Of a stretch of DNA of 64,000 bases, positions 7,154 to 56,779 are shown one piece after another (position 1 is the stretch's first letter; each line of letters starts with the position of its first letter). A program made the position numbers and the translations under genes. The notes below the pieces were generated by a model. It did no database searches. It saw only the letters and a program-made list of their open reading frames with translations, and was not told the DNA's origin. Origin of the DNA: a virus (lineage: Duplodnaviria; Caudoviricetes); the IMG/VR virus record IMGVR_UViG_3300026549_000032, positions 96,001-160,000 of that record; one strand, written 5' to 3'.

Positions 7154-7627
7154 ATGATTAGTAACAAAATTGACGAATTAATTTCGGAAGCACGTAGTTC
7201 TAAGGATAGAGAACTACTGAAAGTATTAACCCTGATCAAGGCGGAACTTCAGAAAGCAAAGACCGCTAAGAACAGGAAAGCTACTGGTGAACTGACGGAG
7301 GTAGAAGAGGCAAAGACTCTCATCGCCATGGTAGAACAAAGAAAAGGTTCTATCGACGAATATATAAAGGGCAAGCGAGAGGACTTAGCACAGGCTGAAC
7401 AGAAAGAGATTGATATTATTCAGCCCTACATTCCAGAGCTTCCCACCGAAGAAGAACTTAAGGAGTATATTGCCGGAGCAATAACCGCCTACAAGACAAC
7501 GAAAGAGGATGGTTATGCACTAAGTATGAAGGATATGAAACCCTTGATTGAGATTGTTCAGGGTAAATATCCTACGGCTCCAGGTAAGTTAATCAGTAGT
7601 ACACTTCAAGGAATCCTAAGAGGATGA
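7154..7627 (+). CDS. GatB/YqeY domain protein
   Basis: Typical YqeY pattern (QRKGSIDEY..GKREDLA..E..EI.II..YIP; MKDMK). Confidence 0.9.
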   Translation: MISNKIDELISEARSSKDRELLKVLTLIKAELQKAKTAKNRKATGELTEVEEAKTLIAMVEQRKGSIDEYIKGKREDLAQAEQKEIDIIQPYIPELPTEEELKEYIAGAITAYKTTKEDGYALSMKDMKPLIEIVQGKYPTAPGKLISSTLQGILRG

Positions 7628-8209: not shown

Positions 8210-8557
8210 ATGAACGAAATAAAACTACACGAACTAGTAGCAAACGTATTTAGGGATTACCCATATAATGCGTGTTTATATATAGGAAAATATAGATTTA
8301 AGGCGGAAGGAGAGACAACTCCAGAGGTAGATGTATGTTTCCCATGGGAAGCGACTGACGTGGAGGATATTCCCTTCTCCGTCTATAGTAGAGGACCAAT
8401 TATCACTGGTAAACCAAAGGAGAGCATAGACAAGTTGCTTATGTTCTTCTTGGATGATAGTCCGACGAACTATTTCACAGTAGTTCATAGAGAGCCCGGC
8501 AAAGACTACTACATGTACATAGATAGACATTCAGATATATACGTAACAAAAGTATGA
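8210..8557 (+). CDS. Hypothetical protein, first gene of the TNSS/radical SAM operon
   Basis: CCTTATT at 8196-8202; ATGA coupling to next gene. Confidence 0.7.
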   Translation: MNEIKLHELVANVFRDYPYNACLYIGKYRFKAEGETTPEVDVCFPWEATDVEDIPFSVYSRGPIITGKPKESIDKLLMFFLDDSPTNYFTVVHREPGKDYYMYIDRHSDIYVTKV

Positions 8558-9123
8558 TCAAGGTTAAAAGTATAACTGACGTTATTACTAACTCAAGCAC
8601 AGAAGTATTTGTATTGAAATTAACAAGTAAAGAAGTTGAATGGCTTGAGAATAAAAGAATAACGTACGCCAGAGAAGCTCTGAAAGCTAACAAGGAAAAT
8701 AAAACTTGGATGAGAAGCTTGAGTGAGAAAGAGAGAAAAGAGTATACTTCCCTCGACTTTCTCCTTGAAGAGGTTGACGAATGTAAGGTTGTCTTAGCTC
8801 CCTGCTTCACTAGGGAAGGTCTCTTGTGGGGCTTGGGCAATAAAGAAGATAGAAAGAGATTCTGGGTTAATGATGACTGGGAGTATATCAGAAAAATTAT
8901 AGGCGGTAAAGCCATCGAAGAGACAGACGAGGATCCAGATTTTAGGTCATTTAATAAATGGTTGGCAAATAATATAGACTGGATCTCCGAGAAGATGAAG
9001 GATGTCTGGCTCATGGAAGTCTGTAACTATGACGAGAAAATCTATGAGAAGCTAGATCTCTATGCTCACATGGATAACCTACCCAAAGATGGTAAAGTTT
9101 TGTTTTATGAATGTAGGCATTAA
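8554..9123 (+). CDS. TNSS-motif protein 1
   Basis: N-terminus MIKVKSITDVITNSSTEVFV. Confidence 0.8.
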   Translation: MIKVKSITDVITNSSTEVFVLKLTSKEVEWLENKRITYAREALKANKENKTWMRSLSEKERKEYTSLDFLLEEVDECKVVLAPCFTREGLLWGLGNKEDRKRFWVNDDWEYIRKIIGGKAIEETDEDPDFRSFNKWLANNIDWISEKMKDVWLMEVCNYDEKIYEKLDLYAHMDNLPKDGKVLFYECRH

Positions 9124-9526
9124 GAGTATCACCGACGTCATAACTAACTCAAGTACAGAAGTATTTGTAGTTAAGAAAAGAGGTAAACAAGTAGCTGAGA
9201 ATGGTTACTTCTCTGGAATAAACACACCACAATCTGTTAACTGGGAACCCAAGGAGATAACTTGGAAGTGGTTAAGGTCTAATCAAGGGAAGTCTGAATG
9301 GATGATGATATGTGACCTGGTTGACAAACCCTACACTGAGCTATCAACTTCTGGGGATGAACCTGATTGGGGTAGGTGGAACGACTGGGTTACTCTTCAC
9401 AAACATAGAATCCAAGATAGAGCTATTGGCTTATGGTTCCTAACAATCCGAGATGGCTTTGGTGGATTCTTAGACATGGTAAAGGATATAAAAGATTACA
9501 TTGTCTGGCATGAAAATAGGCATTAA
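9107..9526 (+). CDS. TNSS-motif protein 2
   Basis: Start moved to ATG 9107: MNVGIKSITDVITNSSTEVFV. Confidence 0.8.
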   Translation: MNVGIKSITDVITNSSTEVFVVKKRGKQVAENGYFSGINTPQSVNWEPKEITWKWLRSNQGKSEWMMICDLVDKPYTELSTSGDEPDWGRWNDWVTLHKHRIQDRAIGLWFLTIRDGFGGFLDMVKDIKDYIVWHENRH

Positions 9527-9803
9527 GAGTAGGACAGATATAATAACCAATTCTAGTACGGAGGTTTATGAGATCATCATTAATGGATCTCCTAAGAGAG
9601 TTGAAGAGGTACTTCAAGGAATCTTAGACACCTTAGATTGGGTTGGACATGACACAGCTAGAGTGACCACTGAAGATAATGTTATAACTTTAACTGGTAT
9701 TGAAGACAACTCGATCCCATTCCCCTTGATAAACTTATTAGAGAAAGGAAAGTTTAAAGAGTGGTTTGATGAAATTAGTGAAATTAAAAATAGAAGAATA
9801 TGA
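9510..9803 (+). CDS. TNSS-motif protein 3
   Basis: Start at ATG 9510: MKIGIKSRTDIITNSSTEVYE. Confidence 0.8.
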   Translation: MKIGIKSRTDIITNSSTEVYEIIINGSPKRVEEVLQGILDTLDWVGHDTARVTTEDNVITLTGIEDNSIPFPLINLLEKGKFKEWFDEISEIKNRRI

Positions 9804-10918
9804 AAAATTTTACAGGCTGGGGAACAAAGATTAGAAGAGACCTTAGCAAGAACTACTATGCCATATGGCAAAACTTAGTAACAACGCGTCTCGACCTGGG
9901 AGATGAGATTGCCCTAGAGCCGGAGAAGTCTGAGTTCATGGATGTTGGTATAACCTCCAGATGTAATGCATGTTGTCCGTTCTGCTATGTCAGTGCAAGC
10001 GATAAAGGTCTTGATTACAAGAATATTGCCAAGACATGGAAGAAATGGATGGCAACAATGCCCGCTGATAGACCAATAGATCCTAGTCTTCTCCCGGAGG
10101 ACGATCCATTGAAGGAGGTCTTTGATGACAAGCGAACTCCAAAAGAGCTGCTCATAGATATAGCAGAAATTGGAGCGGGTAAGAAAAAGACCAATGACGC
10201 TGGTGAAAACATGGACGACCTGGAGTTAATTCTCAAGATCAAATCCTTCACAGCCCTGGGACTTCCGCTGGTAGAAACATTTAGGCCTTATCAGGTGGCT
10301 TGTGGTTCGATTGGTGAGCCAACAATTCATCCAGAGTTTGTAGAATTCTTACAGGCTGTCTTTGAGACTGGTGTGGTTCCCAATTATACAACAAACGGAA
10401 TCGTACTCTCAGACTATAGGACACAAGAATGTAAGGACCTCCTAGAGGCAACTAAGCAGTTCTGTGGTGGTGTGGCAGTTAGCTTTGGTAATAAGAAACT
10501 TCACCCACATGCAAGAGTAGCTATAGAGAACTTAATTTTATACGGGGAATGCAAGGTGGTCATCCACCACATCATTAGTGACAAGGCTAGTGTGGACGAT
10601 ATGATTAGTCTTGCCAAGGAATATAAAGATCGACTCCACTACCACGTCCTGCTGCCACTTATGGCTCATGGTCGTAGTAAGGAAGGCCTCCAGGAAGGAG
10701 TCTTTGAGTATATGTATGAGAAATGTGAAGAGGAAGGAGTGACGAATTTGGCCTTTGGTGCTAACTTCGCTCCTCAATTGAAGGCACATCCAGACCTCTT
10801 CCCCGTCTATGAGTATCCTCAGGAGATCTATAGCAAGAATGTACTCCTGCAGGAGGATAAAGTAGTAATAACACCAAGTAGCTTTAATTTAAAGCCATGC
10901 AAGACGATAGAATTGTAG
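9800..10918 (+). CDS. Radical SAM enzyme
   Basis: CNACCPFCY (CxxxCxxC), GEPTIHPEF, NYTTNG, VAVS; long insertion after the cluster motif; no C-terminal SPASM Cys cluster seen. Confidence 0.92.
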   Translation: MKNFTGWGTKIRRDLSKNYYAIWQNLVTTRLDLGDEIALEPEKSEFMDVGITSRCNACCPFCYVSASDKGLDYKNIAKTWKKWMATMPADRPIDPSLLPEDDPLKEVFDDKRTPKELLIDIAEIGAGKKKTNDAGENMDDLELILKIKSFTALGLPLVETFRPYQVACGSIGEPTIHPEFVEFLQAVFETGVVPNYTTNGIVLSDYRTQECKDLLEATKQFCGGVAVSFGNKKLHPHARVAIENLILYGECKVVIHHIISDKASVDDMISLAKEYKDRLHYHVLLPLMAHGRSKEGLQEGVFEYMYEKCEEEGVTNLAFGANFAPQLKAHPDLFPVYEYPQEIYSKNVLLQEDKVVITPSSFNLKPCKTIEL

Positions 10919-39259: not shown

Positions 39260-40327
39260 CTAGGAATTCTTTTGTCTAAGTTTGGTATAACTCTGCTTCC
39301 CTTTCGCCACTGACGAGGGATCAATGAGTCTCCAATACCTATTATTTTTGTTTTCAAATATGTTATCCGCGTACTCTGGAGGACGTTTATCGCTTTTAGA
39401 AGTTTCATGTACGGATTCTCCATCCTGCTTTATTCCAAAAGCATTGTCCCAAGAAACGTCAAATATGTCGCCTGCCTTACGACCTGTTAATGAGAGTGGT
39501 GATATTCCTCCACCATTCTTTACTAGTCGGATGATAATATACATATTACCTTCAATATCAATGAAGTCCGACTCTTTTACTTTTTCCGATCCTTTAAAAT
39601 CCCCTGTTATCATAGTCCAAGGAACATCTTCTCCCTTCTTATAGCCCTGATAAGAGCCTATTCCCTGAATATCATTCTTTATGGATATTCTGAGGGATAC
39701 AAGGAAGAGTTCCGCATCTAAGAAGTCACCACCTGGGGTTTGGATTATATTCTTATCGGAGGTATTCTTGAAACCACTAAGCTTCAATACCATGTACCGA
39801 ATTGATCCTCTCCATTCTTCCAAGGCGGAAGTTGGATACGTACTCAGGTCTAGGTTATCAAAGACCTTTTTCTCAGGATCAAACTGTCTCCAGGCAATGA
39901 TGTCAGCTGGGAAGATGATGAGTTTTGGCTTATATTCAATTCCGAAATACTCACACATCTTTTCTGAGAGGAACTTCTTGTGACCTATCTCACCGGTCTG
40001 ATGAGACATTATCACAGAATTGAACTTCTCCGTCTGAACAACCTTTTCCAGCTTATAGACTGTCTTAAGTCCATTCTCGTAGAGGTGTCCAGGGATGAGT
40101 TCTCCACTAGAATCCTCTACGGCAGGGAGGGGAAGTCTTGGCTTCTCAAGACGTTGATCGAGGAAGGATAGATAGCGATCCGTTGGGATAACATCTATCC
40201 TATCTCCCTTTAATCTAACGTAATGTGTTGCACGAGACCTATAGTGAAAGACGGGATATCCTTTCTCATCTTTCCCCTCGGTTACTCTAATCGTATCAGT
40301 ATCGTTATAACAATACATCCCTGCCAT
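39260..40327 (-). CDS. Hypothetical protein
   Basis: 355 aa, TAATG-coupled to telA. Confidence 0.7.
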   Translation of the reverse strand: MAGMYCYNDTDTIRVTEGKDEKGYPVFHYRSRATHYVRLKGDRIDVIPTDRYLSFLDQRLEKPRLPLPAVEDSSGELIPGHLYENGLKTVYKLEKVVQTEKFNSVIMSHQTGEIGHKKFLSEKMCEYFGIEYKPKLIIFPADIIAWRQFDPEKKVFDNLDLSTYPTSALEEWRGSIRYMVLKLSGFKNTSDKNIIQTPGGDFLDAELFLVSLRISIKNDIQGIGSYQGYKKGEDVPWTMITGDFKGSEKVKESDFIDIEGNMYIIIRLVKNGGGISPLSLTGRKAGDIFDVSWDNAFGIKQDGESVHETSKSDKRPPEYADNIFENKNNRYWRLIDPSSVAKGKQSYTKLRQKNS

Positions 40328-41523
40328 TACTTAAGCTCATCTGCTGTGATAGCTGCCTTACCAGTACCGTACATTTCTTCGAGGTCCTTGGCAATACCAC
40401 GGAGTTCCTCGCTGGTTTCTTTATTAATCCTAGAGATTTCTGCACGAGCTTCTGCTCTCTTCTGAGCAGCTTCACGTATATTCTGGGCTGATGTCTTGAG
40501 GGCCTCCACAACACTGGTATTAGCCTGACGATAGGCATCGAGATCGATGATATCACGCATGGCATTCTCCTCTACCTTGATGGTGATGTTCTTCATGTTC
40601 TCAGCATTCTGAACAATCATCTTATTGTGCATATCCTTGATGAGCTTCTGAGATTCTGCAATCTCTTCACTTCTCTGGTCAATGATAGCAATGGCGATAG
40701 AGGTTTCCCACTCTGGGAGCACATGATTCCTGATGTTCTCCGCACTGGAGGCCAGGATCTCAGTATTATCCTTCATCTTCTGGATCTGCGGGAGAAGGAT
40801 GTGGCCATTATATTGAGCTGCCATGAACAGCTGGTGACCACGCTCGTCGATCTTCTCAAGAAATCTCTTCTTAGAGATAAGTTCCTGATCAGACCACTTG
40901 CCCGGAGTTTCCTTGTTTTCCTCAAGCATTCTGTTATACTCGTCCTCAGTATCCTTAAAGAGCTGAGCGAGGGCAACGTAATCCATACCAAGCTGCTCTA
41001 TATAGGAGACAGTCTTTCTCTGAATCTCGTCCAAGGTATTGTAATCCTGGAAGAGGTCAGCCTGTTGTGTTGCCAGAGAGTCAGAGACACGGCCAATAGT
41101 CTTCTTAGCGGATTCGTGTTTCTGAATGAGTTTATCTACACGAGCTGCTGCCGGGACTCCGATAAAGGGGAGTTTGGCTACGAATTTCTTCCAACCGGTC
41201 AGTTTGTCGGGATCTGCGAGCTGAGACTCATTAATGACGTCTACAATCTCCTGAATATAACCACCGACAGGACCGGCCTTATCTATCTTGTTCATTTCCA
41301 GCAACTTCGCCGAGCACTCACTCTTTGTGGACTCAAGCTTAATGCCGAAAGATGACAAGGTCTTCTCGTCTTTTACGTGGCGAGTGATCTCACGACACCG
41401 AGCAACTGCCTCTGGAGACAAGCTACTGACGTCAACGCGACCATCTTCACCAACAACACGACTAAGTTTCACCAATGCGTCGTCCGCACTTTCTCTTACT
41501 GTTTTTACAATTTCGTTTGCCAT
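40327..41523 (-). CDS. Toxic anion resistance protein (TelA-like)
   Basis: SSFG, KLPFIG, helical body, LPQIQKM..N..L, VLPEWETSIAIA. Confidence 0.75.
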   Translation of the reverse strand: MANEIVKTVRESADDALVKLSRVVGEDGRVDVSSLSPEAVARCREITRHVKDEKTLSSFGIKLESTKSECSAKLLEMNKIDKAGPVGGYIQEIVDVINESQLADPDKLTGWKKFVAKLPFIGVPAAARVDKLIQKHESAKKTIGRVSDSLATQQADLFQDYNTLDEIQRKTVSYIEQLGMDYVALAQLFKDTEDEYNRMLEENKETPGKWSDQELISKKRFLEKIDERGHQLFMAAQYNGHILLPQIQKMKDNTEILASSAENIRNHVLPEWETSIAIAIIDQRSEEIAESQKLIKDMHNKMIVQNAENMKNITIKVEENAMRDIIDLDAYRQANTSVVEALKTSAQNIREAAQKRAEARAEISRINKETSEELRGIAKDLEEMYGTGKAAITADELK

Positions 41524-41576
41524 ACTTTAAAATAGTTTATGTTTATCACACCTATAAGGAAATTAAAACCCAAGGA

Positions 41577-42260
41577 TTATTCCAAGGGTTTTGTCATGTC
41601 ATACTTATAAAGTTCAGCCGGAGAGACGAGATGTTTCTCGAAGAATTCCTTACATCTCTTCTTTCTAAACTCTAGTTCTCCTTCTGGAGTTCCATAAGTT
41701 TGCTGAAGCCAGCCGTAGGAAGAAAGTTCTTTCTTTTTCTTCTTCTCAGATTTCCAACGTTTCTTGATCTTCTCAAGGAGGGCAGCCTCTTCTTTCAGTT
41801 CTTCACGAAGTTTGATCATCATGGGCCAATCCTCCATGAATTCAATGATTTCATAGGTCTGTCTCTCTTCGGGTTTTAATTTCTTAATCCATTCCCGCTC
41901 GTCTTTGGTGGGTCTCCGGATAAGACGGCCATTATCGTCCTTGATATAGAAATAGTCGGAGTCGATAACATAATAGTTCTTAAGGAGGTAGTCTATGACA
42001 TCGTCCTTAGCTTCATCAATGTCAAGCATGGACCAACCTTCGGGGATCCAATCATAAGTGTCACCCCAATCTTTATTTGCCGGACTTGTATTATCATAAA
42101 TAGACAATTCTCCTCCCATGCCAGAACTTTTCCCGGAGTCAATAGACTCAAGGTCCTTCAAGATGTCGGCCACACTCTTTCCGTAGTTTCTAAAGATGAA
42201 AACTTCTGAGGATGAGTTGGTAATGACATCTGTCTTACTTCTTACTCTTCTTTTTGCCAT
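41577..42260 (-). CDS. TNSS-motif protein 6
   Basis: MAKRRVRSKTDVITNSSSEVFI; SGMGG motif. Confidence 0.8.
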   Translation of the reverse strand: MAKRRVRSKTDVITNSSSEVFIFRNYGKSVADILKDLESIDSGKSSGMGGELSIYDNTSPANKDWGDTYDWIPEGWSMLDIDEAKDDVIDYLLKNYYVIDSDYFYIKDDNGRLIRRPTKDEREWIKKLKPEERQTYEIIEFMEDWPMMIKLREELKEEAALLEKIKKRWKSEKKKKKELSSYGWLQQTYGTPEGELEFRKKRCKEFFEKHLVSPAELYKYDMTKPLE

Positions 42261-42538
42261 GTTGTATCCTTTACTTTACTTTTACCAAATGCTCTCTTTA
42301 AGTGCTTCTCAGTATCAATCAGACCACAAGGGCCATGGAGATACTCTATATCAACGGCAGTCCCATCGAAGGTATCACTGAAATCTGCCGTAAAGATATC
42401 CGGTTTCTTTGGGTTATTCCTAGTTCCAAATGTACCAAGACCTTCTAGGTAATCATACCAAGTTTCCATGACGGTTTCCCAATCACCGCTCTTTTGGATT
42501 CGGTACGATTCTATAACCTCGTCGTATTTGTTGATCAT
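42242..42538 (-). CDS. Hypothetical protein within TNSS cluster 2
   Basis: 98 aa, overlaps both neighbours, lacks the motif. Confidence 0.6.
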   Translation of the reverse strand: MINKYDEVIESYRIQKSGDWETVMETWYDYLEGLGTFGTRNNPKKPDIFTADFSDTFDGTAVDIEYLHGPCGLIDTEKHLKRAFGKSKVKDTTWQKEE

Positions 42539-43023
42539 GTTCTATAGTGTTCTATGAATTTTCTTTTATTCTTCTTCATCCACTTCTCTATGACCTCAAC
42601 ACAGCTGTTCCAGTGGTCAAGTTCTCCGTAGGCCTTTCCAATCAGCTCATTCCAGGCAGGATCTGCCAGAACTTTATCCCAAAACTCTTTATCCTTCTTC
42701 TCAAGATACTCCTTAACTTCTGTCACTGTATGACCAAAATCAACGAGTACTTGGAGAGTTGTGGTACTAATCCTCAAGTTAGCTGACGGAGGAACAGCAG
42801 CTGGAAGTCCTAACCCTGAGGGAGGTCTCATTATACGCTTGATGTCCTCCTTGCTGTGATACACTTTCACATTCTTGGTTAAGGAGGTCTCTACGTATTC
42901 TTTGTTCTCCAGGTCAGACTCCTTGAGATACTCCATGAAGTCATCCCAGTCCTGAACCTTCATTATAAAAACCTCAGAACTACTGTTAGTGATTACGTCT
43001 GTTTTGCTTCGTACTCTAAACAT
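42535..43023 (-). CDS. TNSS-motif protein 5
   Basis: MFRVRSKTDVITNSSSEVFI. Confidence 0.8.
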   Translation of the reverse strand: MFRVRSKTDVITNSSSEVFIMKVQDWDDFMEYLKESDLENKEYVETSLTKNVKVYHSKEDIKRIMRPPSGLGLPAAVPPSANLRISTTTLQVLVDFGHTVTEVKEYLEKKDKEFWDKVLADPAWNELIGKAYGELDHWNSCVEVIEKWMKKNKRKFIEHYRT

Positions 43024-43547
43024 TTCTGTACACTCATATAATATCGTTCCACTTTCTCATATTCTGGCCAAAGCTTCTGAAGGTCTTTATCAGATTCTAG
43101 GTTGGCCATCTTATCTTGCATTTCCTGCCATCTCTTCTCCCAATGGTCCTTCAGCCAACCCCAGAAGAGATTCTTTGGGGAATGTCCAGGCCAAGCTAAA
43201 CATTGGATATAGTCTGGGTTAGTCATAATCCACCTTCTCTTCTCCTGGAAGGCATAGTCCAGGTCAATGGCTAGGTAACCGTCGGGGAGACATTCAAAGG
43301 GTTTATGCTCATCAATAACATCACTTGCTTCAGACTCATAGTCTTCCCAATCCCAGTAGTAACAATCGTTCTTAGTGGTTTGGTTATCATAGACTTCAAC
43401 TATTCCTCCCATCCCTGAAACGCGACTGTCCTCTTCCTTTATTTTCTCTAGGAATCGTTTCATTGCCTCCGGACTCTTATCACTTTTTATGATGAAGACC
43501 TCCGACGAGGAATTAGTTATGACATCCGTTTTGCTCTTGACTTGCAT
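42993..43547 (-). CDS. TNSS-motif protein 4
   Basis: MQVKSKTDVITNSSSEVFI; SGMGG motif. Confidence 0.8.
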   Translation of the reverse strand: MQVKSKTDVITNSSSEVFIIKSDKSPEAMKRFLEKIKEEDSRVSGMGGIVEVYDNQTTKNDCYYWDWEDYESEASDVIDEHKPFECLPDGYLAIDLDYAFQEKRRWIMTNPDYIQCLAWPGHSPKNLFWGWLKDHWEKRWQEMQDKMANLESDKDLQKLWPEYEKVERYYMSVQKCLEYEAKQT

Positions 43548-43879
43548 GATGGATTTGTGTAATATATGATTCTACTTTTCTCAAGTATACGTCGTTCCAA
43601 GAACCAAGAGGTTACTTTCCTAATAGCCAGATAGCTAAGTTCATCTAATCCGACAATGTAGTGGGGCGTGATTTCACCATGTTCGTTATCATAGTTAATC
43701 TGCTTCACCCCTAATACGATGGCCGATGCTATCTTGGGTAGTTTGTACGGGTCTATCTCTTTGACTTCGAGATCTCCAGGAAGTCCAAGTTCGTCGGAAC
43801 CCTCTATACAATCTTCCTTAGTCAAGAATACGTAAAACTTTGGTTTTAGAACATCCTCTTTAGTCCAAGCGATGTACAT
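43517..43879 (-). CDS. Hypothetical protein
   Basis: 120 aa in operon. Confidence 0.6.
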   Translation of the reverse strand: MYIAWTKEDVLKPKFYVFLTKEDCIEGSDELGLPGDLEVKEIDPYKLPKIASAIVLGVKQINYDNEHGEITPHYIVGLDELSYLAIRKVTSWFLERRILEKSRIIYYTNPSCKSRAKRMS

Positions 43880-45237
43880 TTCTTATTAATCCAGCTTTTC
43901 CAACCCAGACCATAAAACTCCTTCCTGACTTCTCGAATGAGATTGTCAACGAAATCCAGGTCAATCTCATCAGGGAGTTTAGAAGAGGCCATGGCGTCTT
44001 TCATTTCCTGATCGCGAGAGGTTAAGTACTTCATCAAGTCTTCATAGACGATATCGCCATTCCTAATCTGAAGCAACCAATCTCTGTCGATCCCTCGGCG
44101 GTCTATCTTAACACCTTCACCACGGGCAATCTCAATTCCCATGGCAAGGAGTCGGGCTGAGTGCATACCATTCTTCAGGTCATAGTGACCTTTCTTGGCC
44201 AGGTTGAAGCGCTCTTCATTGTGATGTTTGCTCCAGTCGTGATACTCCTTATACTGCTGACAATAGGTCGAATAAGCATCCTTGTTATAGGATACTAGGA
44301 GTACGGCTTTCTCACCTTTGGGGATAGAGCTTAAGCGCACCTGATTTGACGTATCCTTCTCATTGACAAGACCTTTATAACCAAAAGGCTGTTCTACATC
44401 ATCCCAGAATTTCTCTACCTCATCCCAACAGATAATACTTCCGTAGGGGTCGTAACCGAGGAGTGAATATCCTTTCTCCATTCCGTAATGGAACAAGGAC
44501 TTCAAGAAGGGGTTAGAGAAATCATCCTCTACCTTTTTATCGAAATCCTCGGTACAGAACTTCTTCAAGTCCTCAAAGCATCGAATATTGTATTCGAAAT
44601 AGAGGTGTGCTGGGAAGTCATAGTACATGTCGTAGCAGCAAATCATCTTATCAAGATTCACCAAGCCACAATACTTCTGGAGGAGGCCATGATTCTTGAG
44701 CCAGTTGACTACGGTATCAGAACCGCCTTCTTTCTCGTACATAATGAATTCCAAGACACTCTGTTGCGGACCCTCAATGGGATGAACAATTTTCTTTTTG
44801 AGGTTCTGTGCCTTCTCAATCTGAGTTTTTGCATAACCCATGAAAGATCCGAAACACTTCTTCGTTACGAACTGATCTCTTTTGGAGAGAATAATGTCCA
44901 TAACGGGATGCTTATAGAGGATCTTGTCTTCAGGGACATACAGTGACTCTAAGACGTTTGGATTTGACTTAATGAGAAGATCCATGAACTTCCTCAATGA
45001 GAACCACGAATCGTCGTTCGTCGCATCATGAACGTCCTCTGGGAATTCTAGGCCATGTCCGAGAAGAGTGTCATGGGGTTCTATGTAGACACCTCCATGG
45101 TCTTCATCCGATTCTGGCCGATCCAGTCCATACAACTTACTTCCTCTTACATACTCATACAAGAGAAGTCCTTTCTCTCTAAGATACTGAAAGTCAATCT
45201 TTCTCTTTAGGGGTTCCATTTTAATGATGTGAGTCAT
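43846..45237 (-). CDS. Pol-beta superfamily nucleotidyltransferase (YcgL/RlaP-like) with central insertion
   Basis: RGSKLYGL...SDED, KSNPNVLE, YDLKNGMHSARLL, LLQIRNG. Confidence 0.85.
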   Translation of the reverse strand: MTHIIKMEPLKRKIDFQYLREKGLLLYEYVRGSKLYGLDRPESDEDHGGVYIEPHDTLLGHGLEFPEDVHDATNDDSWFSLRKFMDLLIKSNPNVLESLYVPEDKILYKHPVMDIILSKRDQFVTKKCFGSFMGYAKTQIEKAQNLKKKIVHPIEGPQQSVLEFIMYEKEGGSDTVVNWLKNHGLLQKYCGLVNLDKMICCYDMYYDFPAHLYFEYNIRCFEDLKKFCTEDFDKKVEDDFSNPFLKSLFHYGMEKGYSLLGYDPYGSIICWDEVEKFWDDVEQPFGYKGLVNEKDTSNQVRLSSIPKGEKAVLLVSYNKDAYSTYCQQYKEYHDWSKHHNEERFNLAKKGHYDLKNGMHSARLLAMGIEIARGEGVKIDRRGIDRDWLLQIRNGDIVYEDLMKYLTSRDQEMKDAMASSKLPDEIDLDFVDNLIREVRKEFYGLGWKSWINKKCTSLGLKRMF

Positions 45238-45643: not shown

Positions 45644-46144
45644 TTAATACTCCTTTCTAAAATCTTTATCAAAATAGTCGATCCTGTGGATCAATTCTCT
45701 CCATTTCTCCCTCATGGTCTCCTCATTATCAGTGCTTTTGAATCTTTCGCTGGCAGACATTCCAGTGTCGTAATACCTGAATATGTAAAGCTCCTTTCTA
45801 GGATTCCAGCTTTCTTCGTTTTTATCCGTCCTGTCTAAGTCATATTCGATACGAACCTGTATACTTTGATGACGATCCTTTGTTACCATATTCTCATATC
45901 TTTTTTCTAACATGAGAAAGGCTCTTTTAACAACGTCATCAAAGCTCCACCCAAGCTCTACTTTATCGTGAGACTCATTTACTCCTTTATCAGGAGCAGG
46001 TAGTGGTGGAGTAGCTTCCTCTTTTTCTTTTGGCTTAGGAAGTGCTATTTCTTTTGCTAATAATTCCTTCTTGTAGGGACAGGTCTCACTTGGACATAAG
46101 TGTTTACAGAATGCTTTAAAAAGTCCCATTCTTATTGAACCCAA
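45644..46144 (-). CDS. Hypothetical protein
   Basis: 166 aa. Confidence 0.6.
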   Translation of the reverse strand: MGSIRMGLFKAFCKHLCPSETCPYKKELLAKEIALPKPKEKEEATPPLPAPDKGVNESHDKVELGWSFDDVVKRAFLMLEKRYENMVTKDRHQSIQVRIEYDLDRTDKNEESWNPRKELYIFRYYDTGMSASERFKSTDNEETMREKWRELIHRIDYFDKDFRKEY

Positions 46145-47229
46145 ACTTCTTCATCATAGTAACCTTTATCCAGAGCGTTCAGGAAGAATCTGATTTCCTT
46201 TGAGGCACGACAGGGTGTGAAATTGTTAGTATCAACACCTACATCGAGTCCGAAAGGTTTGATTCTCTGACGTCCATGAATATGTCCAAAAAGCGCACAC
46301 TTAGTACCAAACTTAAGTCTGGCATTGTTCGTAGCTATAGGTTCGTGGCCTAGAGTGATCTTTTGACTATCCTTGAAAGACGTATAGAGATCCGTCTCGA
46401 AAGGTTCATCTGAGAACTGATCGAATCCTTTCTCACAAAGAATCTCTCCATACCTCTTAACGTCTCCGTCATATTTCTCCTGGATATCTTTCTTTTCGTA
46501 GTTCCCTAAGACTAGAAGAATCTGTCCATTGAGGTACTTCACCATATCTAAGTTACCGAAGTCTCCTAGGTGATAAACTTTGGAGTTAGGACGTACAACC
46601 TGATTCCATTTCTCGATCATGGTCCAGTCCATCTCTTCAACATTCTTGAATGGTCGAACACTCAACTCTAAGGTTCGCTCTGAGCCGAAATGCGTATCGC
46701 TCGTGAAGAACGTGTTAACACTTCTGTCAGTGGTTTCTAGGTCAGACTTAATTCGTTCTTTTAACTCTTTAATACAGTCTTCAAGATTATCGTGGACTGC
46801 ATATAAGCCAGAATTAGCTAACCTATACTCCTCAGCCTTGTGAACTAAGTACCTTCGAGTATGAATCTCTGGGTGGATACCGAGAATAATTCTCTTTCCA
46901 CGAGCCAGGTTTTCCATGAGCTCGATCTTTGTGGTCTGAGCATAATCTCGTCCCTCTATCTTTTCTTCCTCGGGTGGAATCCAGAATAGAACGTAGTCAC
47001 TAACCCTAAGAGCCTTGGTTTCCCAATCTACCTGTTCATTCCAGTCGAAGGTTGATTTATCTAGGGATTCTCGACGAGGGCTTATAACAGTTACTCCTTC
47101 ACCGAGATCAGGTACATCATTCTTTTGCCAATCATGAACCCCTTGAATAGGTCCTGCTAAGAAGACATAAATACTGTCTTTCTTCTGACCTGGGATAATT
47201 GGATTTGGCGCTTGAATAAATCTACTCAT
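46132..47229 (-). CDS. Nucleoside 2-deoxyribosyltransferase-like domain fused to calcineurin-like metallophosphoesterase
   Basis: VFLAGPIQG..WQ, SPRR, QVDWE; FTSDTHFG, HLGDF, GNYE, HEP, GHIH, DVGVD. Confidence 0.85.
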   Translation of the reverse strand: MSRFIQAPNPIIPGQKKDSIYVFLAGPIQGVHDWQKNDVPDLGEGVTVISPRRESLDKSTFDWNEQVDWETKALRVSDYVLFWIPPEEEKIEGRDYAQTTKIELMENLARGKRIILGIHPEIHTRRYLVHKAEEYRLANSGLYAVHDNLEDCIKELKERIKSDLETTDRSVNTFFTSDTHFGSERTLELSVRPFKNVEEMDWTMIEKWNQVVRPNSKVYHLGDFGNLDMVKYLNGQILLVLGNYEKKDIQEKYDGDVKRYGEILCEKGFDQFSDEPFETDLYTSFKDSQKITLGHEPIATNNARLKFGTKCALFGHIHGRQRIKPFGLDVGVDTNNFTPCRASKEIRFFLNALDKGYYDEEVWVQ

Positions 47230-47594
47230 GCGTGTATGAATATATCTGTCTTTTCAACACCAGCCTGACCAGACTCAATACCATCCAAGGTAATCTTGAA
47301 ATCCAAGGGCTCATCACGATTCTGTACCTTCTCAATGAGCTGATCCAGCGTGAGATCTGTGTCCAGGATGAATGGAATTACTCCATTGGTACCTACGATC
47401 TTACATTTCTCTAGGGTCAGAAGCTTGTTACCGTCCAGGAAGTCAAAGAGACTCTTGAAGTCAGTAGCATGAGTGTTAACGTGATTTACGAACGCCTTCA
47501 TAGCATCGTCTTCCGTTGCAGCTTCTACAACAACTGATGGCATTTTATCCATCACATAAAACATTGCGAATAATTGTTTCTTTTGATTATCCAT
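47226..47594 (-). CDS. Hypothetical protein
   Basis: 122 aa in operon. Confidence 0.6.
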   Translation of the reverse strand: MDNQKKQLFAMFYVMDKMPSVVVEAATEDDAMKAFVNHVNTHATDFKSLFDFLDGNKLLTLEKCKIVGTNGVIPFILDTDLTLDQLIEKVQNRDEPLDFKITLDGIESGQAGVEKTDIFIHA

Positions 47595-47940
47595 ATCTAT
47601 AATTCTTGATAATATCTTCTCCGCTATATACTTTATATTCTACACCATTAAGGCGATAAACTCTTTTTGGTACTAGAACCTGAAGATTCTTGACTGTGAA
47701 CTCTACTATTTTAGGGTCCTCAAAGAAGGCAACCTTTCTTTTTAAGAGCTCAACTGTTGGGAACTTATTTGTTCCTAAGTTTGCAAAGAGTAGGGTATTC
47801 TTCCAAGTGTCGGGATCTAAGAGAATCAGGGAGGCGATTTCCTTCCATGCATTGACCTTAGTAGGGCTGTCCATGACAATTCCGGTCCAAAGAGGGTCTC
47901 GCCTAATTCCTATTTCGCTTGTCCTACAACTAAAGTACAC
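47587..47940 (-). CDS. Hypothetical protein
   Basis: 117 aa in operon (GTG start). Confidence 0.55.
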   Translation of the reverse strand: MYFSCRTSEIGIRRDPLWTGIVMDSPTKVNAWKEIASLILLDPDTWKNTLLFANLGTNKFPTVELLKRKVAFFEDPKIVEFTVKNLQVLVPKRVYRLNGVEYKVYSGEDIIKNYRYG

Positions 47941-49030
47941 CGTATCTAATCACGTTTTTAAAGTCATTCCAGTTTCGTGTGCCGGTCATCATGAATGCAT
48001 AATAAGCACACTCTTCAAAGTCCTTGCACCACTCATCTAGGTTTGCATTGATTTCAATCCATTCCCAGGCAGTATCGCTGACCTTGATTCTGGGTTTACT
48101 TCTTCTCCAAGATTCGACGTCTTGGAACCCAGCTCTCATAGCTCTAGCCTCTGGAGATGTGTTTCCATAGTACATTCTAGAGAAGCCATTGAGCTTAGCT
48201 TTAACACCATCCATGCCTCGAACTGTGGAAGGATCAATCTCATCCTTCACGAAGTCTCCGGATTTTGTCTTACTACACTTATAGATAGGTCCATAAGCCT
48301 CAATGACACGAGCAAAATCTCTACCTATCATTACATAATCTGCTCCCAGGGCAATGGCTTTAATGATATCAGAGGGACATGTTATTCCTCCATCAGCCAC
48401 AATCTTAACTTGCTTTGGGAGAGTTATGCCTCCTGTCTTCTTGAAATTCTTAATGCCCTCAAGGAGAGATGCCATTGGGTAGTGGAATCCATACTTCCCA
48501 CGATCTACTTGTGAGCCAGAAGCTATCCCAACGCGCATATAGTCAAAACCAGCGCGAGCATATTGAGAGTATACTTCTGGAGTACCTATGTTACCGCCCA
48601 TGACGATGACCTGTGCGCCATACATCCTCTTAAGATCTCCACATAGGTTGATTAGTCCTTGGTCATGTCCATTCCCCGAATCTATGCAGATATGGTACTG
48701 AGTATTTCCTCCAATCCTATTACGATTCAAGAACTCTGCTTTGACTTCGTTCATGGAGAATGCACAGAATACCCACTGACATAGTTCGAGTCTTTCCGTG
48801 AGGGGATCACAGGCAGGGATAACGGGCTTAATTCCATGATCAACAAAGTCCTTTATATTCTCTTTACCAATAATGGCTGAACTAGGACTTGTGAAGATAG
48901 GTAGGGTTCTAGCATATCCCGTCTGGTCATTTGGATCTGTTACTGAATAATCGGCCGTATTACCTAAGTGGCCATTGTTTGTAACGCTTGGAATAAGCGT
49001 AATGTCTTCTAATTCGTAATAATTTTCCAT
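47930..49030 (-). CDS. IMPDH/GMP reductase family paralog lacking the catalytic Cys
   Basis: IDSGNGH, GGNIGT, IVADGGI..DIIKAIALGADYVMIG; loop RVGIASGSQVD has no Cys. Confidence 0.8.
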   Translation of the reverse strand: MENYYELEDITLIPSVTNNGHLGNTADYSVTDPNDQTGYARTLPIFTSPSSAIIGKENIKDFVDHGIKPVIPACDPLTERLELCQWVFCAFSMNEVKAEFLNRNRIGGNTQYHICIDSGNGHDQGLINLCGDLKRMYGAQVIVMGGNIGTPEVYSQYARAGFDYMRVGIASGSQVDRGKYGFHYPMASLLEGIKNFKKTGGITLPKQVKIVADGGITCPSDIIKAIALGADYVMIGRDFARVIEAYGPIYKCSKTKSGDFVKDEIDPSTVRGMDGVKAKLNGFSRMYYGNTSPEARAMRAGFQDVESWRRSKPRIKVSDTAWEWIEINANLDEWCKDFEECAYYAFMMTGTRNWNDFKNVIRYGVL

Positions 49031-55633: not shown

Positions 55634-56779
55634 TCATCTGTTAATGCTAGTAATGGCAGAAACAGAATTTGTGACCAACTTTGTGTTCGTAGTGAACTGC
55701 TGCAGGTCCCTTGCTCCTGCATATGACATCGCTGATCGTAGGTAATCTGTGAAATTCTCGACCCAAGCCTGCATGGTATACTCAACATCAAGTGTTGTTT
55801 CAATGCCCTCGCTCGTATGAGTCTTTTTACCGTTCATGGCTAACTGGCCACGTTTGGAAGCCATGCCATAGAACGTCTTCTTGATAGTGACCGGCCCGAG
55901 AAGGGTATTATCATCCTTCCACGCCATAAACTCGCCACTACCAAAGGTAACCCTATAGGTACCCATGAATTTCGTTAGATCATCTTGTTGTTGTTTGTCC
56001 TCGGGATCAACCCAAGAGACGGTTCCGGGAGCTGCGCTTTCTAGCATCTTAGTGAAGACAGAGCCAATCATGACTCGATCCGCACCCAAGGCTAAAGCTT
56101 TGATGGCGTCACTATATCCACGTACTCCTCCATCAGCCACTATGAGCGGAGTAGTATGGACCAATTGACCGCCTTCAGTTAACAGCCGCTTCTTAATGGA
56201 AGAAATCTCATTCAGGAGAGATGCCATAGGATATCCTACCCCAGTATTGGAAGAGGTTATGCAACCACGACCAACCCCTATACCGACTCGTACGTAATCG
56301 GCACAAGCTCTAGCGGCCGCTAGATAGGTTTCGGGATTCGCTATGTTCCCTACCATGACAATAAGATTCTTCGTCTGGGCCTTGGCTGAACGGACTAGGT
56401 TGTATAACTTTTCCATATGACCGTTCGCTATGTCAATGAGGACACGGAAGAACTTTCCATCCCATCCGTCCCAGATTGACTTTACGAAATACTCCTCAAA
56501 CTCTCCCAACGACATAGCCACCCAATACCCAAGACTGAGTAATTGGAGACGATCTGTAAGGGATTCCGTTCGAGGGATGATCGGTGTTATACCCTGAGCG
56601 ACCCAGAGATCCATATTATTAATCCCAATAACCGAATCCATCGGTGCCGTGAAGAGAGGAAGTTTATTAGTTCCTTCCTCTACGTAGGGATTGCAGTCTT
56701 TTCTTGAATCAATGGGGCTGACTGCTGCCGGTACAATTGAAACATCTTTATAGGAAAATTTCAATTCTGTATCTAACAT
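55634..56779 (-). CDS. IMP dehydrogenase / GMP reductase family protein (no CBS domains)
   Basis: TAPMDSV, IDIANGH, VGIGVGRGCITS (catalytic Cys), ADGGVR, FYGMAS, SEG, LRSAMSYAGA. Confidence 0.9.
   Translation of the reverse strand: MLDTELKFSYKDVSIVPAAVSPIDSRKDCNPYVEEGTNKLPLFTAPMDSVIGINNMDLWVAQGITPIIPRTESLTDRLQLLSLGYWVAMSLGEFEEYFVKSIWDGWDGKFFRVLIDIANGHMEKLYNLVRSAKAQTKNLIVMVGNIANPETYLAAARACADYVRVGIGVGRGCITSSNTGVGYPMASLLNEISSIKKRLLTEGGQLVHTTPLIVADGGVRGYSDAIKALALGADRVMIGSVFTKMLESAAPGTVSWVDPEDKQQQDDLTKFMGTYRVTFGSGEFMAWKDDNTLLGPVTIKKTFYGMASKRGQLAMNGKKTHTSEGIETTLDVEYTMQAWVENFTDYLRSAMSYAGARDLQQFTTNTKLVTNSVSAITSINR

What the first reader, a model, noticed from the sequence alone, without database searches (positions are those of the whole stretch)
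8554..10918. Radical SAM enzyme preceded by three proteins sharing only an N-terminal SxTD(V/I)ITNSSTEV motif
Seen: ORFs at 8554, 9107 and 9510 begin (V/I)KS(I/R)TD(V/I)ITNSSTEV(F/Y), then diverge strongly. They overlap one another and the CxxxCxxC radical SAM gene at 9800. Established: radical SAM maturases often sit beside substrates that share a short conserved recognition or core peptide. Inference: a phage post-translational modification system in which the enzyme modifies the TNSS segment of several ~100-230 aa proteins. Alternatively the Asn-Ser-Ser site may self-process. The enzyme has a long insertion after the cluster motif that might recognise substrate, and no obvious SPASM domain.
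Basis: partly seen in the sequence, partly recalled or inferred. Interest (0 to 1): 0.78.

Follow-up and report, generated by a model that had tools for sequence, protein, structure and literature searches.

The report
Radical SAM enzyme with tagged client proteins
A large uncultured phage carries one radical SAM enzyme and eleven otherwise unrelated small proteins that all begin with the same invariant tag (DxITNSS[S/T]E); the enzyme-plus-tag pair recurs in hundreds of large phages and in a bacterial immune-type operon, which points to an undescribed protein-modification system.

Summary
Three translationally coupled genes (8554, 9107, 9510) share an N-terminal tag, [KR]-h-[KQ]-S-x-[TS]-D-[VI]-I-T-N-S-S-[ST]-E-V-[FY], and run into a radical SAM (rSAM) gene (9800-10918).

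Three more tag genes lie at 41.5-43.5 kb and five elsewhere in the 218-kb phage record, which has one rSAM gene.

- **Selection:** the tag is kept at the protein level. Ser codons switch between AGY and TCN.
- **Position:** it sits at residues 2-17 in 149 of the 150 best of 1126 database clusters.
- **Structure:** its first part is modelled as a disordered arm in front of a confident small domain.
- **C-terminal parts:** they fall into at least 25 BLAST clusters that are mostly unrelated.
- **Linkage in phages:** 78 of 80 IMG/VR rSAM loci have 1-5 tag genes directly upstream. This holds in 23 of 24 dereplicated groups, and no other neighbour exceeds 14 of 24.
- **Linkage in cells:** a distant SPASM-bearing homologue sits in a SMEK-nuclease/STAND operon directly after a protein that starts MKxKxDF[VI]SNSSSTSFVYI.
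- **Enzyme fold:** the nearest solved structures are the peptide maturases SkfB and SuiB.

Best reading: the enzyme recognises the tag and probably modifies it. The chemistry is unknown and no modification has been shown. I found no description of it in the literature or the family libraries I searched.

The parts
8554..9123 (+). Tag protein 1 (189 aa, P0001). The tag is encoded at about 8560-8610. The start overlaps the stop of the preceding ORF (ATGA).
   Evidence: its C-terminal part belongs to the same subfamily as tag protein 2 (hhalign cluster 3 vs 8, prob 94.8)
9107..9526 (+). Tag protein 2 (139 aa, P0002). The tag is encoded at about 9119-9166. The rest is a small alpha+beta domain with a conserved D116 and a C-terminal [DE]xxH.
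   Evidence: AF2 pLDDT 86, with residues 1-14 below 50; no clear fold match
9510..9803 (+). Tag protein 3 (97 aa, P0003). The tag is encoded at about 9522-9569. The stop overlaps the rSAM start (ATGA).
   Evidence: its C-terminal part is a singleton in clustering
9800..10918 (+). Radical SAM enzyme (372 aa, P0004). It has no auxiliary-cluster cysteines and is the only copy in the genome.
9962..9985 (+). Codons for C55-x3-C59-x2-C62, the [4Fe-4S]/SAM cluster motif.
   Evidence: invariant in 40 homologues
10097..10279 (+). Variable helical insertion (about residues 100-160), absent in most homologues.
   Evidence: alignment A2
42993..43547 (-). Tag protein 4 (184 aa), with a second SGMGG motif. 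It belongs to the largest C-terminal cluster.
42535..43023 (-). Tag protein 5 (162 aa).
41577..42260 (-). Tag protein 6 (227 aa), with the SGMGG motif.

Best explanation
This is a two-component protein-modification module. One radical SAM enzyme recognises a short, invariant, flexible N-terminal tag, core D-x-[IV]-[ST]-N-S-S-[ST]-x-x-[FY], that is carried by many otherwise unrelated small proteins (its 'clients'). It most likely performs radical chemistry on a residue inside that tag, probably in the Asn-Ser-Ser-Ser/Thr stretch. Shown here: the tag, selection on it at the protein level, its N-terminal position, its exclusive and conserved linkage to this enzyme clade in phages and in bacteria, and the enzyme's rSAM fold with peptide maturases as nearest structures. 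Inferred: that the enzyme binds the tag directly, that the tag is the modified site rather than only a docking peptide, and the type of chemistry. Candidates include Ser oxidation, an intra-tag cross-link and backbone cleavage. The phage enzyme lacks the auxiliary clusters that its bacterial relatives keep.
For: (1) Linkage in phages. 78 of 80 IMG/VR rSAM loci have 1-5 tag ORFs within 3 kb upstream on the same strand, and none downstream or on the opposite strand within 10 kb. One of the two exceptions has a variant tag (TNSSTS) directly upstream. The other genome has three tag genes elsewhere. After dereplication at 85% identity, the tag family is upstream in 23 of 24 enzyme groups, whereas every other neighbouring gene family is found in at most 14 of 24. 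Three records rated complete hold 2-5 tag genes. I checked that they lie beside the enzyme in G005, and the G003 coordinates also fall within about 10 kb of it; I did not check G004.
(2) An independent recurrence in cells. In 13 of 14 cellular loci, a distant homologue of the enzyme (hhalign probability 99.6, E 2.4e-24, 38% identity) is directly preceded by a protein of about 133 aa that begins MKxKxDF[VI]SNSSSTSFVYI. Only the tag aligns with the phage proteins.
(3) Selection acts on the peptide, not the DNA. D, T, N, S, S and E are invariant in 189 unique ORFs, although the search pattern allowed alternatives. Information content is about 4.3 bits at these positions and falls below 1 bit after position +13. 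Ser codons switch between AGY and TCN, and synonymous sites vary freely.
(4) The tag is a terminal arm. It starts at residues 2-17 in 149 of the 150 best of 1126 clusters. In the AF2 model of P0002 the domain is confident, but residues 1-14 have pLDDT below 50.
(5) One enzyme serves many clients. There is one rSAM gene and 11 tag genes in this genome. The C-terminal parts form at least 25 BLAST clusters, and profile comparison of the 10 largest links only one pair.
(6) Enzyme fold. The AF2 model has pLDDT 93.6. The best structural matches are the peptide maturases SkfB (Z 20.8, rmsd 3.0 over 254 residues, model 8-372) and SuiB (Z 19.1, rmsd 3.3 over 267), and both alignments include the N-terminal sheet. 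Other rSAM enzymes align only from about residue 30-45. The bacterial relatives carry a SPASM domain and score best against MftC, PqqE and WgkB-type peptide maturases.
(7) Complex prediction (rSAM + SAM + 4Fe-4S + P0002) gave weak support: score 0.56 against a best control of 0.00. The mark was reached by 58 of 80 solved complexes and 2 of 110 mismatched pairs. At 0.60 or under, however, it was reached by only 7 of those 80 and by both mismatches that passed. The runs agree in at least 30% of contacts, and the partner's pLDDT is at least 58.
Against: No modification has been observed, so everything about chemistry is inference. The complex prediction is only a weak pass and returned no contacts, so it does not show that the tag is the interface. 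The phage enzyme has no auxiliary cluster and no conserved extra Cys, whereas most known peptide cross-linking and oxidising rSAM maturases have one. Eight of the 11 tag genes in this genome are not next to the enzyme. One contig has four tag genes with no enzyme of this clade within 10 kb, and its full record could not be searched. No RRE/PqqD-like domain was detected by sequence.
Confidence: 0.55

Rival explanations
1. The tag is a docking peptide only. The tag proteins are interchangeable adaptor or regulatory subunits that bind the rSAM enzyme through the tag, and their variable domains bring different targets (host proteins, nucleic acids, metabolites) to it or control it. The enzyme's true substrate is something else.
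For: It rests on the same linkage data, the disordered arm and the weak complex pass. The many unrelated C-terminal domains fit a set of specificity adaptors. The phage enzyme lacks the auxiliary cluster usual for peptide maturases.
Against: Six invariant residues, including three consecutive small polar ones (N-S-S), are more than docking peptides usually need. The closest structures and family scores are peptide-modifying enzymes. One bacterial operon carries a single tag protein, not a set.
Confidence: 0.2
2. The tag has a function of its own, for example binding or covalently carrying a small molecule that the rSAM enzyme makes, or forming part of a small catalytic or metal site with other conserved residues. 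The linkage would then reflect a shared pathway rather than direct enzyme-tag contact.
For: Some subfamilies have further conserved polar residues. The P0002 subfamily has D116 and a C-terminal [DE]xxH, and the largest cluster has SGMGG. Viperin, BlsE and DesII, which act on small molecules, are also good structural matches (Z 15-17).
Against: These extra motifs are subfamily-specific, and only the tag is universal. The tag arm is modelled as disordered and outside the domain. No enzyme fold was found for the domain: Foldseek E at best 0.13 and best Z 5.6. The weak complex pass favours contact.
Confidence: 0.13
3. Self-processing: the Asn-Ser bond of the tag cleaves or rearranges autocatalytically (succinimide or N-O shift chemistry), and the rSAM enzyme acts afterwards or independently.
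For: Asn followed by Ser is invariant.
Against: Nothing tested here supports it. A self-processing site normally needs a folded catalytic environment, whereas the arm is modelled as disordered. It also does not explain the strict linkage to the enzyme.
Confidence: 0.05
4. The tag is a phage-specific sorting or cleavage signal (for example a capsid-targeting sequence cut by the prohead protease after S-x-E), and the neighbouring rSAM gene is a passenger of gene order.
For: The tag is N-terminal, and SSE/STE resembles protease sites recalled from phiKZ-type phages (from memory, not tested).
Against: The same enzyme-tag pair occurs in chromosomal operons of bacteria with no phage genes around it. 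The adjacency holds across 23 of 24 diverged phage groups while all other neighbours change.
Confidence: 0.03

Closest known systems
RiPP radical SAM maturases with multiple precursors (SkfB/SkfA, SuiB/SuiA, MftC/MftA, PqqE/PqqA)
   Same: An rSAM enzyme is encoded directly after one or several genes whose products share a conserved N-terminal recognition sequence and vary elsewhere. SkfB and SuiB are the best structural matches. The bacterial relatives carry a SPASM domain and score best on MftC, PqqE and WgkB models.
   Different: The clients are folded proteins of 97-290 aa, not short peptides. The conserved part is an invariant 9-residue core rather than a loosely conserved leader. No RRE domain, protease or exporter is linked. 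The phage enzyme has no auxiliary cluster. All scores are far below every family cut-off.
Protein-activating rSAM enzymes: anaerobic sulfatase maturase (anSME) with sulfatases, and PFL-activating enzyme with glycyl radical enzymes
   Same: One rSAM enzyme acts on a short conserved motif in whole proteins and can serve several paralogous clients. anSME (Z 15.6) and PFL-AE (Z 13.5) are among the structural matches.
   Different: The tag has neither (C/S)xPxR nor a glycine. The clients share no catalytic fold. anSME has two auxiliary clusters, and the phage enzyme has none.
[quoted passage not shown] 2020, PMC7159879)
   Same: This is a predicted rSAM-plus-small-protein pair embedded in an NTPase-centred prokaryotic conflict system. 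The bacterial relatives found here sit in a SMEK-nuclease/STAND NTPase operon.
   Different: The NTPase context differs (STAND/Avs2-like here). Whether it is the same rSAM family was not checked, and that paper's text gives no motif.

Membership tests
Radical SAM superfamily | CX3CX2C motif binding the [4Fe-4S] cluster | tested here: met
   C55, C59 and C62 are invariant in 40 homologues.
Radical SAM superfamily | Partial TIM-barrel core with a GGE-like SAM-binding motif | tested here: met
   AF2 pLDDT 93.6. Foldseek and VIA matches are almost all rSAM enzymes, with the top Z at 20.8. The GS(I/T)GEP block is conserved.
Radical SAM superfamily | Pfam PF04055 at gathering score | tested here: inconclusive
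   P0004 scores 23.2 bits against a cut-off of 29.5. Many homologues carry a precomputed PF04055 hit.
SPASM/twitch radical SAM enzymes | C-terminal cysteine motif binding one or two auxiliary Fe-S clusters | tested here: not met
   The phage clade has no conserved Cys beyond the three cluster ligands. The cellular relatives do reach the TIGR04085 SPASM cut-off: 29.0 bits against 27.
RiPP biosynthetic system | Precursors with a conserved N-terminal recognition sequence encoded beside the maturase | tested here: met
RiPP biosynthetic system | Short precursor peptide whose variable core is the modified product; RRE (PqqD-like) domain; leader protease or exporter | tested here: not met
   The clients are 97-290 aa, and one models as a folded domain. 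No linked protease or exporter family is conserved. No RRE hit was found by Pfam or NCBIfam. The N-terminal sheet aligns structurally with the N-terminal parts of SkfB and SuiB, which leaves the RRE question itself open.
anSME-sulfatase system | (C/S)-x-(P/A)-x-R target motif in a sulfatase fold | tested here: not met
   The tag is D-x-I-T-N-S-S-[ST]-E. No Pfam family reached its gathering cut-off on the client proteins tested.
Glycyl radical enzyme / activase pair | Conserved Gly in an RVxG-type loop on the client | tested here: not met
   There is no glycine in the invariant tag.
Known anti-phage defence systems (PADLOC) | Match of the rSAM enzyme or tag protein to a catalogued system component | tested here: inconclusive
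   There are only weak generic pVip hits on the rSAM core and none on the tag proteins. The neighbouring bacterial NTPase does match Avs2 and a SMEK-type nuclease N-terminal region.

The most novel reading that the evidence does not exclude
The NSS tag plus its rSAM enzyme is a general, previously unrecognised protein-tagging modification system that arose in, or was shared with, bacterial STAND (Avs-like) immunity. Large phages captured it, dropped the auxiliary clusters, and now use one enzyme to arm or disguise a whole repertoire of up to 11 fast-evolving effector proteins, for counter-defence or host takeover. The modification would be a new radical chemistry on an Asn-Ser-Ser motif of folded proteins.
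Probability: 0.25. Interest if true: 0.9.

Novelty: new variant of a known kind. Interest (0 to 1): 0.8.

Why it matters
Radical SAM maturases are known for short peptides and for a few dedicated protein clients. Here one enzyme clade is tied to more than a thousand sequence clusters of small proteins that share only a nine-residue invariant core. The pair occurs in large phages (contigs of about 100-430 kb, including human-gut metagenomes) and in a mobile bacterial operon built around an Avs-like STAND NTPase.

If the enzyme modifies the tag, this is a new post-translational modification with a ready-made portable recognition sequence, which could be useful for protein engineering. It would also give a biochemical handle on a large block of phage 'dark matter' genes, and it would link phage accessory genes to bacterial immunity. 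It can be tested directly with two genes and a mass spectrometer.

Tried and rejected
**Searches that found nothing**
- blastn of the region and tblastn of the enzyme against 50,697 deposited phage genomes gave no match. The module seems confined to uncultured phages in that collection.
- The single-protein locus search found nothing. The alignment-based search worked.
- Pfam, PHROGs, NCBIfam and PADLOC gave nothing above cut-off for any tag protein. The ESM Atlas gave only viral 'hypothetical' clusters.
- No paper holds the motif strings.

**Ideas considered and dropped**
- SGNH-like or catalytic-triad hydrolase (Ser in the tag plus a C-terminal DxxH): the extra residues are subfamily-specific, the arm is disordered, and no enzyme fold was found (Foldseek E at best 0.13, best Z 5.6).
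- A DNA- or RNA-level element: rejected because of the Ser codon-class switches.
- The insertion as a recognition module: rejected, since most homologues lack it.
- C-terminal 'RH' conservation as a by-product of gene overlap: this could apply in this window, but the RH end is also kept where the genes do not overlap (L003).
- A phage counterpart of the bacterial small protein A: none found; the ORF at 8210-8557 shows no similarity.

**Calls that failed**
- The record of L098 is not held, so 'tag genes without the enzyme' could not be tested there.
Full report
**1. The observation**

Listing ORFs and translating them confirms three plus-strand genes. They are 8554-9123 (189 aa), 9107-9526 (139 aa) and 9510-9803 (97 aa). 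They begin MIKVKSITDVITNSSTEVF, MNVGIKSITDVITNSSTEVF and MKIGIKSRTDIITNSSTEVY, and have little else in common. Each overlaps the next by 17 nt. The last ends in an ATGA overlap with a 372-aa gene (9800-10918) that carries CNACCPFC, a CX3CX2C motif. The ORF before them (8210-8557) is also joined by an ATGA, so the genes are probably translated as a coupled unit.

A six-frame motif scan found three further members on the minus strand at 41577-42260, 42535-43023 and 42993-43547. The window is bases 96001-160000 of a 218,381-bp IMG/VR virus record rated 60% complete. A profile of the six proteins finds 11 members in that record, in four clusters. The record holds a single copy of the enzyme gene.

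**2. The tag**

In 189 unique ORFs collected from related loci, the residues D, T, N, S, S and E of D-x-I-T-N-S-S-[ST]-E never vary, although the search pattern allowed alternatives at several of these positions. Information content is near the maximum (about 4.3 bits) across the core and drops below 1 bit from position +14.

The conservation is at the protein level. Serine codons switch between the AGY and TCN classes, and synonymous positions vary freely, even among the 11 paralogues of this one genome.

An HMM of the 32 N-terminal residues, run against 1.84 billion cluster representatives, finds 1126 clusters at E ≤ 0.001. In 149 of the 150 best hits the tag starts at residues 2-17. The exception is a 500-aa protein in which a DHH/DHHA1-like region precedes the tag at residue 304.

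The parts after the tag fall into at least 25 BLAST clusters. Among the ten largest, profile-profile comparison links only the P0002-like and P0001-like groups (probability 94.8); all other pairs score below 16%. No Pfam, PHROG, NCBIfam or PADLOC family describes any of them.

An AlphaFold2 model of P0002, built with 26 subfamily sequences, has mean pLDDT 86 and is mostly above 90 over residues 21-139, apart from a looser stretch at 31-50. Residues 1-14 (MNVGIKSITDVITN), however, have pLDDT below 50, and only EVFVVK forms the first strand. The domain is a generic ferredoxin-like alpha+beta arrangement with no convincing relative: Foldseek E at best 0.13, and the best Z is 5.6.

The most conserved segment of these proteins is therefore modelled as a flexible arm, not a buried strand.

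**3. The enzyme**

P0004 has 713 or more homologues, all from metagenomic contigs, many of them 100-430 kb long. It has none among deposited phage genomes. Forty homologues share the following:
- the three cluster cysteines;
- the blocks GS(I/T)GEP, VVPNYTTNG, GGVAVS.GN and YHVLLPL..GRS;
- a well-conserved N-terminal 50 residues.

No further cysteine is conserved. The segment at residues 100-160 of P0004 is a variable insertion that most homologues lack.

The AF2 model is confident (pLDDT 93.6, pTM 0.91). Foldseek returns rSAM enzymes, led by SuiB and SkfB. An exhaustive structural comparison gives SkfB Z 20.8 (rmsd 3.0, 254 residues) and SuiB Z 19.1 (rmsd 3.3, 267 residues). Both align from residue 6-8, so they include the N-terminal three-stranded sheet. 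Viperin (17.1), GDGT-MAS, BlsE, anSME (15.6), ChlB and PqqE follow, and these align only from residue 30-45.

Sequence models place the enzyme in no curated family; all scores are far below the cut-offs.

**4. Linkage**

Of 80 IMG/VR loci that hold a relative of the enzyme (37-61% identity), 78 have one to five tag ORFs within 3 kb upstream on the same strand. None has a tag ORF downstream or on the other strand within 10 kb. One exception has a variant tag (DVITNSSTS) immediately upstream. The other genome carries three tag genes about 100 kb away.

After grouping the enzymes at 85% identity, the tag family is upstream in 23 of 24 groups. Every other neighbouring gene family occurs in at most 14 of 24, and none of those is in this window.

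Three records rated complete carry two to five tag genes. In G005 they lie directly beside the enzyme, and the G003 coordinates also fall within about 10 kb of it; I did not check G004. Metagenomic contexts fetched by exact protein identity show the same arrangement.

One 334-kb contig has four tag genes with no enzyme of this clade within 10 kb. It does have a different rSAM gene 7 kb downstream. Its full record is not held, so the converse question (tags without the enzyme) stays open for it.

**5. A bacterial counterpart**

A scan of one genome per prokaryotic species found 17 loci. Two (L100, L101) carry the phage-type cassette on contigs binned into MAGs. A third (L102) is a 3.8-kb MAG contig cut off upstream of the gene, with no tag ORF on what is held. 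Fourteen are a distinct cellular clade, separated from all phage enzymes by one long, fully supported branch and nearly identical across distant phyla (quick tree).

The cellular enzyme is specifically related to the phage clade: hhalign probability 99.6, E 2.4e-24, 38% identity over 189 columns, including the region before the cluster motif. Unlike the phage enzyme, it keeps a SPASM domain, and it scores best on MftC, GeoRSP, NirJ2, PqqE and WgkB models.

In 13 of the 14 loci it is the last gene of a conserved four-gene operon:
- a protein of about 885 aa with a SMEK-type nuclease N-terminus and an Avs2-like STAND NTPase;
- a small protein of about 125 aa;
- a protein of about 133 aa whose first 19 residues, MKxKxDF[VI]SNSSSTSFVYI, are almost invariant;
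- the rSAM/SPASM enzyme.

Only the tag aligns between the bacterial and phage client proteins. The bacterial client family is small (26 hits), and wherever a source names it, it is called 'hypothetical'.

The enzyme-tag pair has therefore been kept together across a divergence in which everything else about the client changed. This is the strongest argument that the tag is what the enzyme needs.

**6. Mechanism**

The most economical reading is an enzyme-client relation. The rSAM enzyme binds the free N-terminal arm and abstracts a hydrogen from a residue of the N-S-S-[ST] stretch. The rest of each protein is irrelevant to recognition.

A variable domain cannot offer a defined site, so any modification must be in or next to the tag.

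A complex prediction of the enzyme with SAM, the cluster and P0002 gave weak support. The score was 0.56, and the best of three controls was 0.00. The mark was reached by 58 of 80 solved complexes and 2 of 110 mismatched pairs. At 0.60 or under, it was reached by only 7 of the 80 and by both mismatches that passed. The runs agree in at least 30% of contacts, and the partner's pLDDT is at least 58. No contacts were returned. Given the strong prior from gene linkage, this adds a little support, but it does not show that the tag is the interface.

The chemistry is open. The phage enzyme's lack of auxiliary clusters argues against a simple copy of SPASM-type cross-linking. The options are Ser oxidation, a cross-link, epimerisation or cleavage.

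Rival readings are given with odds in the report sections: docking-only adaptors, an independent function of the tag, self-processing, and a virion sorting signal. The sorting-signal idea is hard to keep in view of the bacterial operons.

**7. Comparison and novelty**

The system works like a RiPP or protein maturase pair, but it fails several defining tests of each known family:
- there is no short core peptide, no detectable RRE, and no linked protease or exporter;
- the phage clade has no auxiliary cluster;
- the tag has no sulfatase or glycyl-radical motif.

Full-text searches for the motif returned nothing. The closest published statement I found is a one-line prediction of an rSAM enzyme that 'likely modifies a peptide-effector' in a different NTPase-centred conflict system (PMC7159879). 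I did not check whether that is the same family.

I rate this a new variant of a known kind. It is large, conserved and directly testable.

**8. Limits**

All evidence is comparative or predicted. Many of the 80 loci are near-duplicates, which is why the dereplicated count of 23 of 24 should be quoted. The tree is a quick search with a midpoint root, so it shows separation of the two clades but not direction of transfer.

Noticed in passing
window 39260-45237 (minus strand): The second tag-gene cluster (41577-43547) sits between a TelA-family gene (40327-41523) and an RlaP-type nucleotidyltransferase (43846-45237). TelA also lies near the cassette in another phage contig (L096 17510-18634).
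   Followed up: partly
L007 3078-4695 and L008 2943-4869 (G000:C1:166000-174000 and 190000-198000): There are five more tag paralogues outside the window, including the two longest in this genome (257 and 286 aa). Several have a YSGD(V/C)Q(D/E)IE motif where others have SGMGG.
   Followed up: partly
L104 2471-6924; L111 2479-6927 (Roseovarius albus, Henriciella pelagia) and 11 further cellular loci: A conserved four-gene operon: SMEK nuclease + Avs2-like STAND NTPase, a small protein of about 125 aa with no known family, the SNSSS-tag protein, and an rSAM/SPASM enzyme. The enzymes are nearly identical across Pseudomonadota, Thermodesulfobacteriota, Bacteroidota and archaeal MAGs, which suggests a mobile, uncatalogued defence-type system.
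   Followed up: partly
L098 9233-12407 and 17432-18445: A 334-kb contig has four consecutive tag genes. About 0.5 kb after the last of them, beyond one intervening 151-aa ORF, lies an anti-Pycsar Apyc1-like metallo-beta-lactamase gene. It has no enzyme of the P0004 clade within 10 kb. A different rSAM gene 7 kb downstream matches only around the cluster motif (hhalign probability 77).
   Followed up: partly
protein P0286 (500 aa, metagenomic): This is the only non-N-terminal tag among the 150 best hits. A region with the DHH motif and a sub-threshold Pfam DHHA1 hit (19.5 bits against a cut-off of 25.9) is fused in front of a tag protein, with the tag at residues 304-332.
   Followed up: partly
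window 9107-9123 and 9510-9526: The last codons of tag proteins 1 and 2 (..R-H-stop, AGG CAT TAA) are the same bases as the G-I-K codons of the next gene's N-terminus in another frame. In this window the two conserved ends therefore constrain each other.
   Followed up: yes
window 46132-49030 and 55634-56779: There are two IMPDH/GMP-reductase-like paralogues (47930-49030, 55634-56779) and a nucleoside 2-deoxyribosyltransferase-like domain fused to a metallophosphatase (46132-47229). A YqeY-like gene lies at 7154-7627, upstream of the cassette.
   Followed up: no
L097 17381-18580 vs L096: An IS605 OrfB/TnpB (Cas12f-like) gene is inserted in one of two otherwise collinear large-phage contigs.
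   Followed up: no
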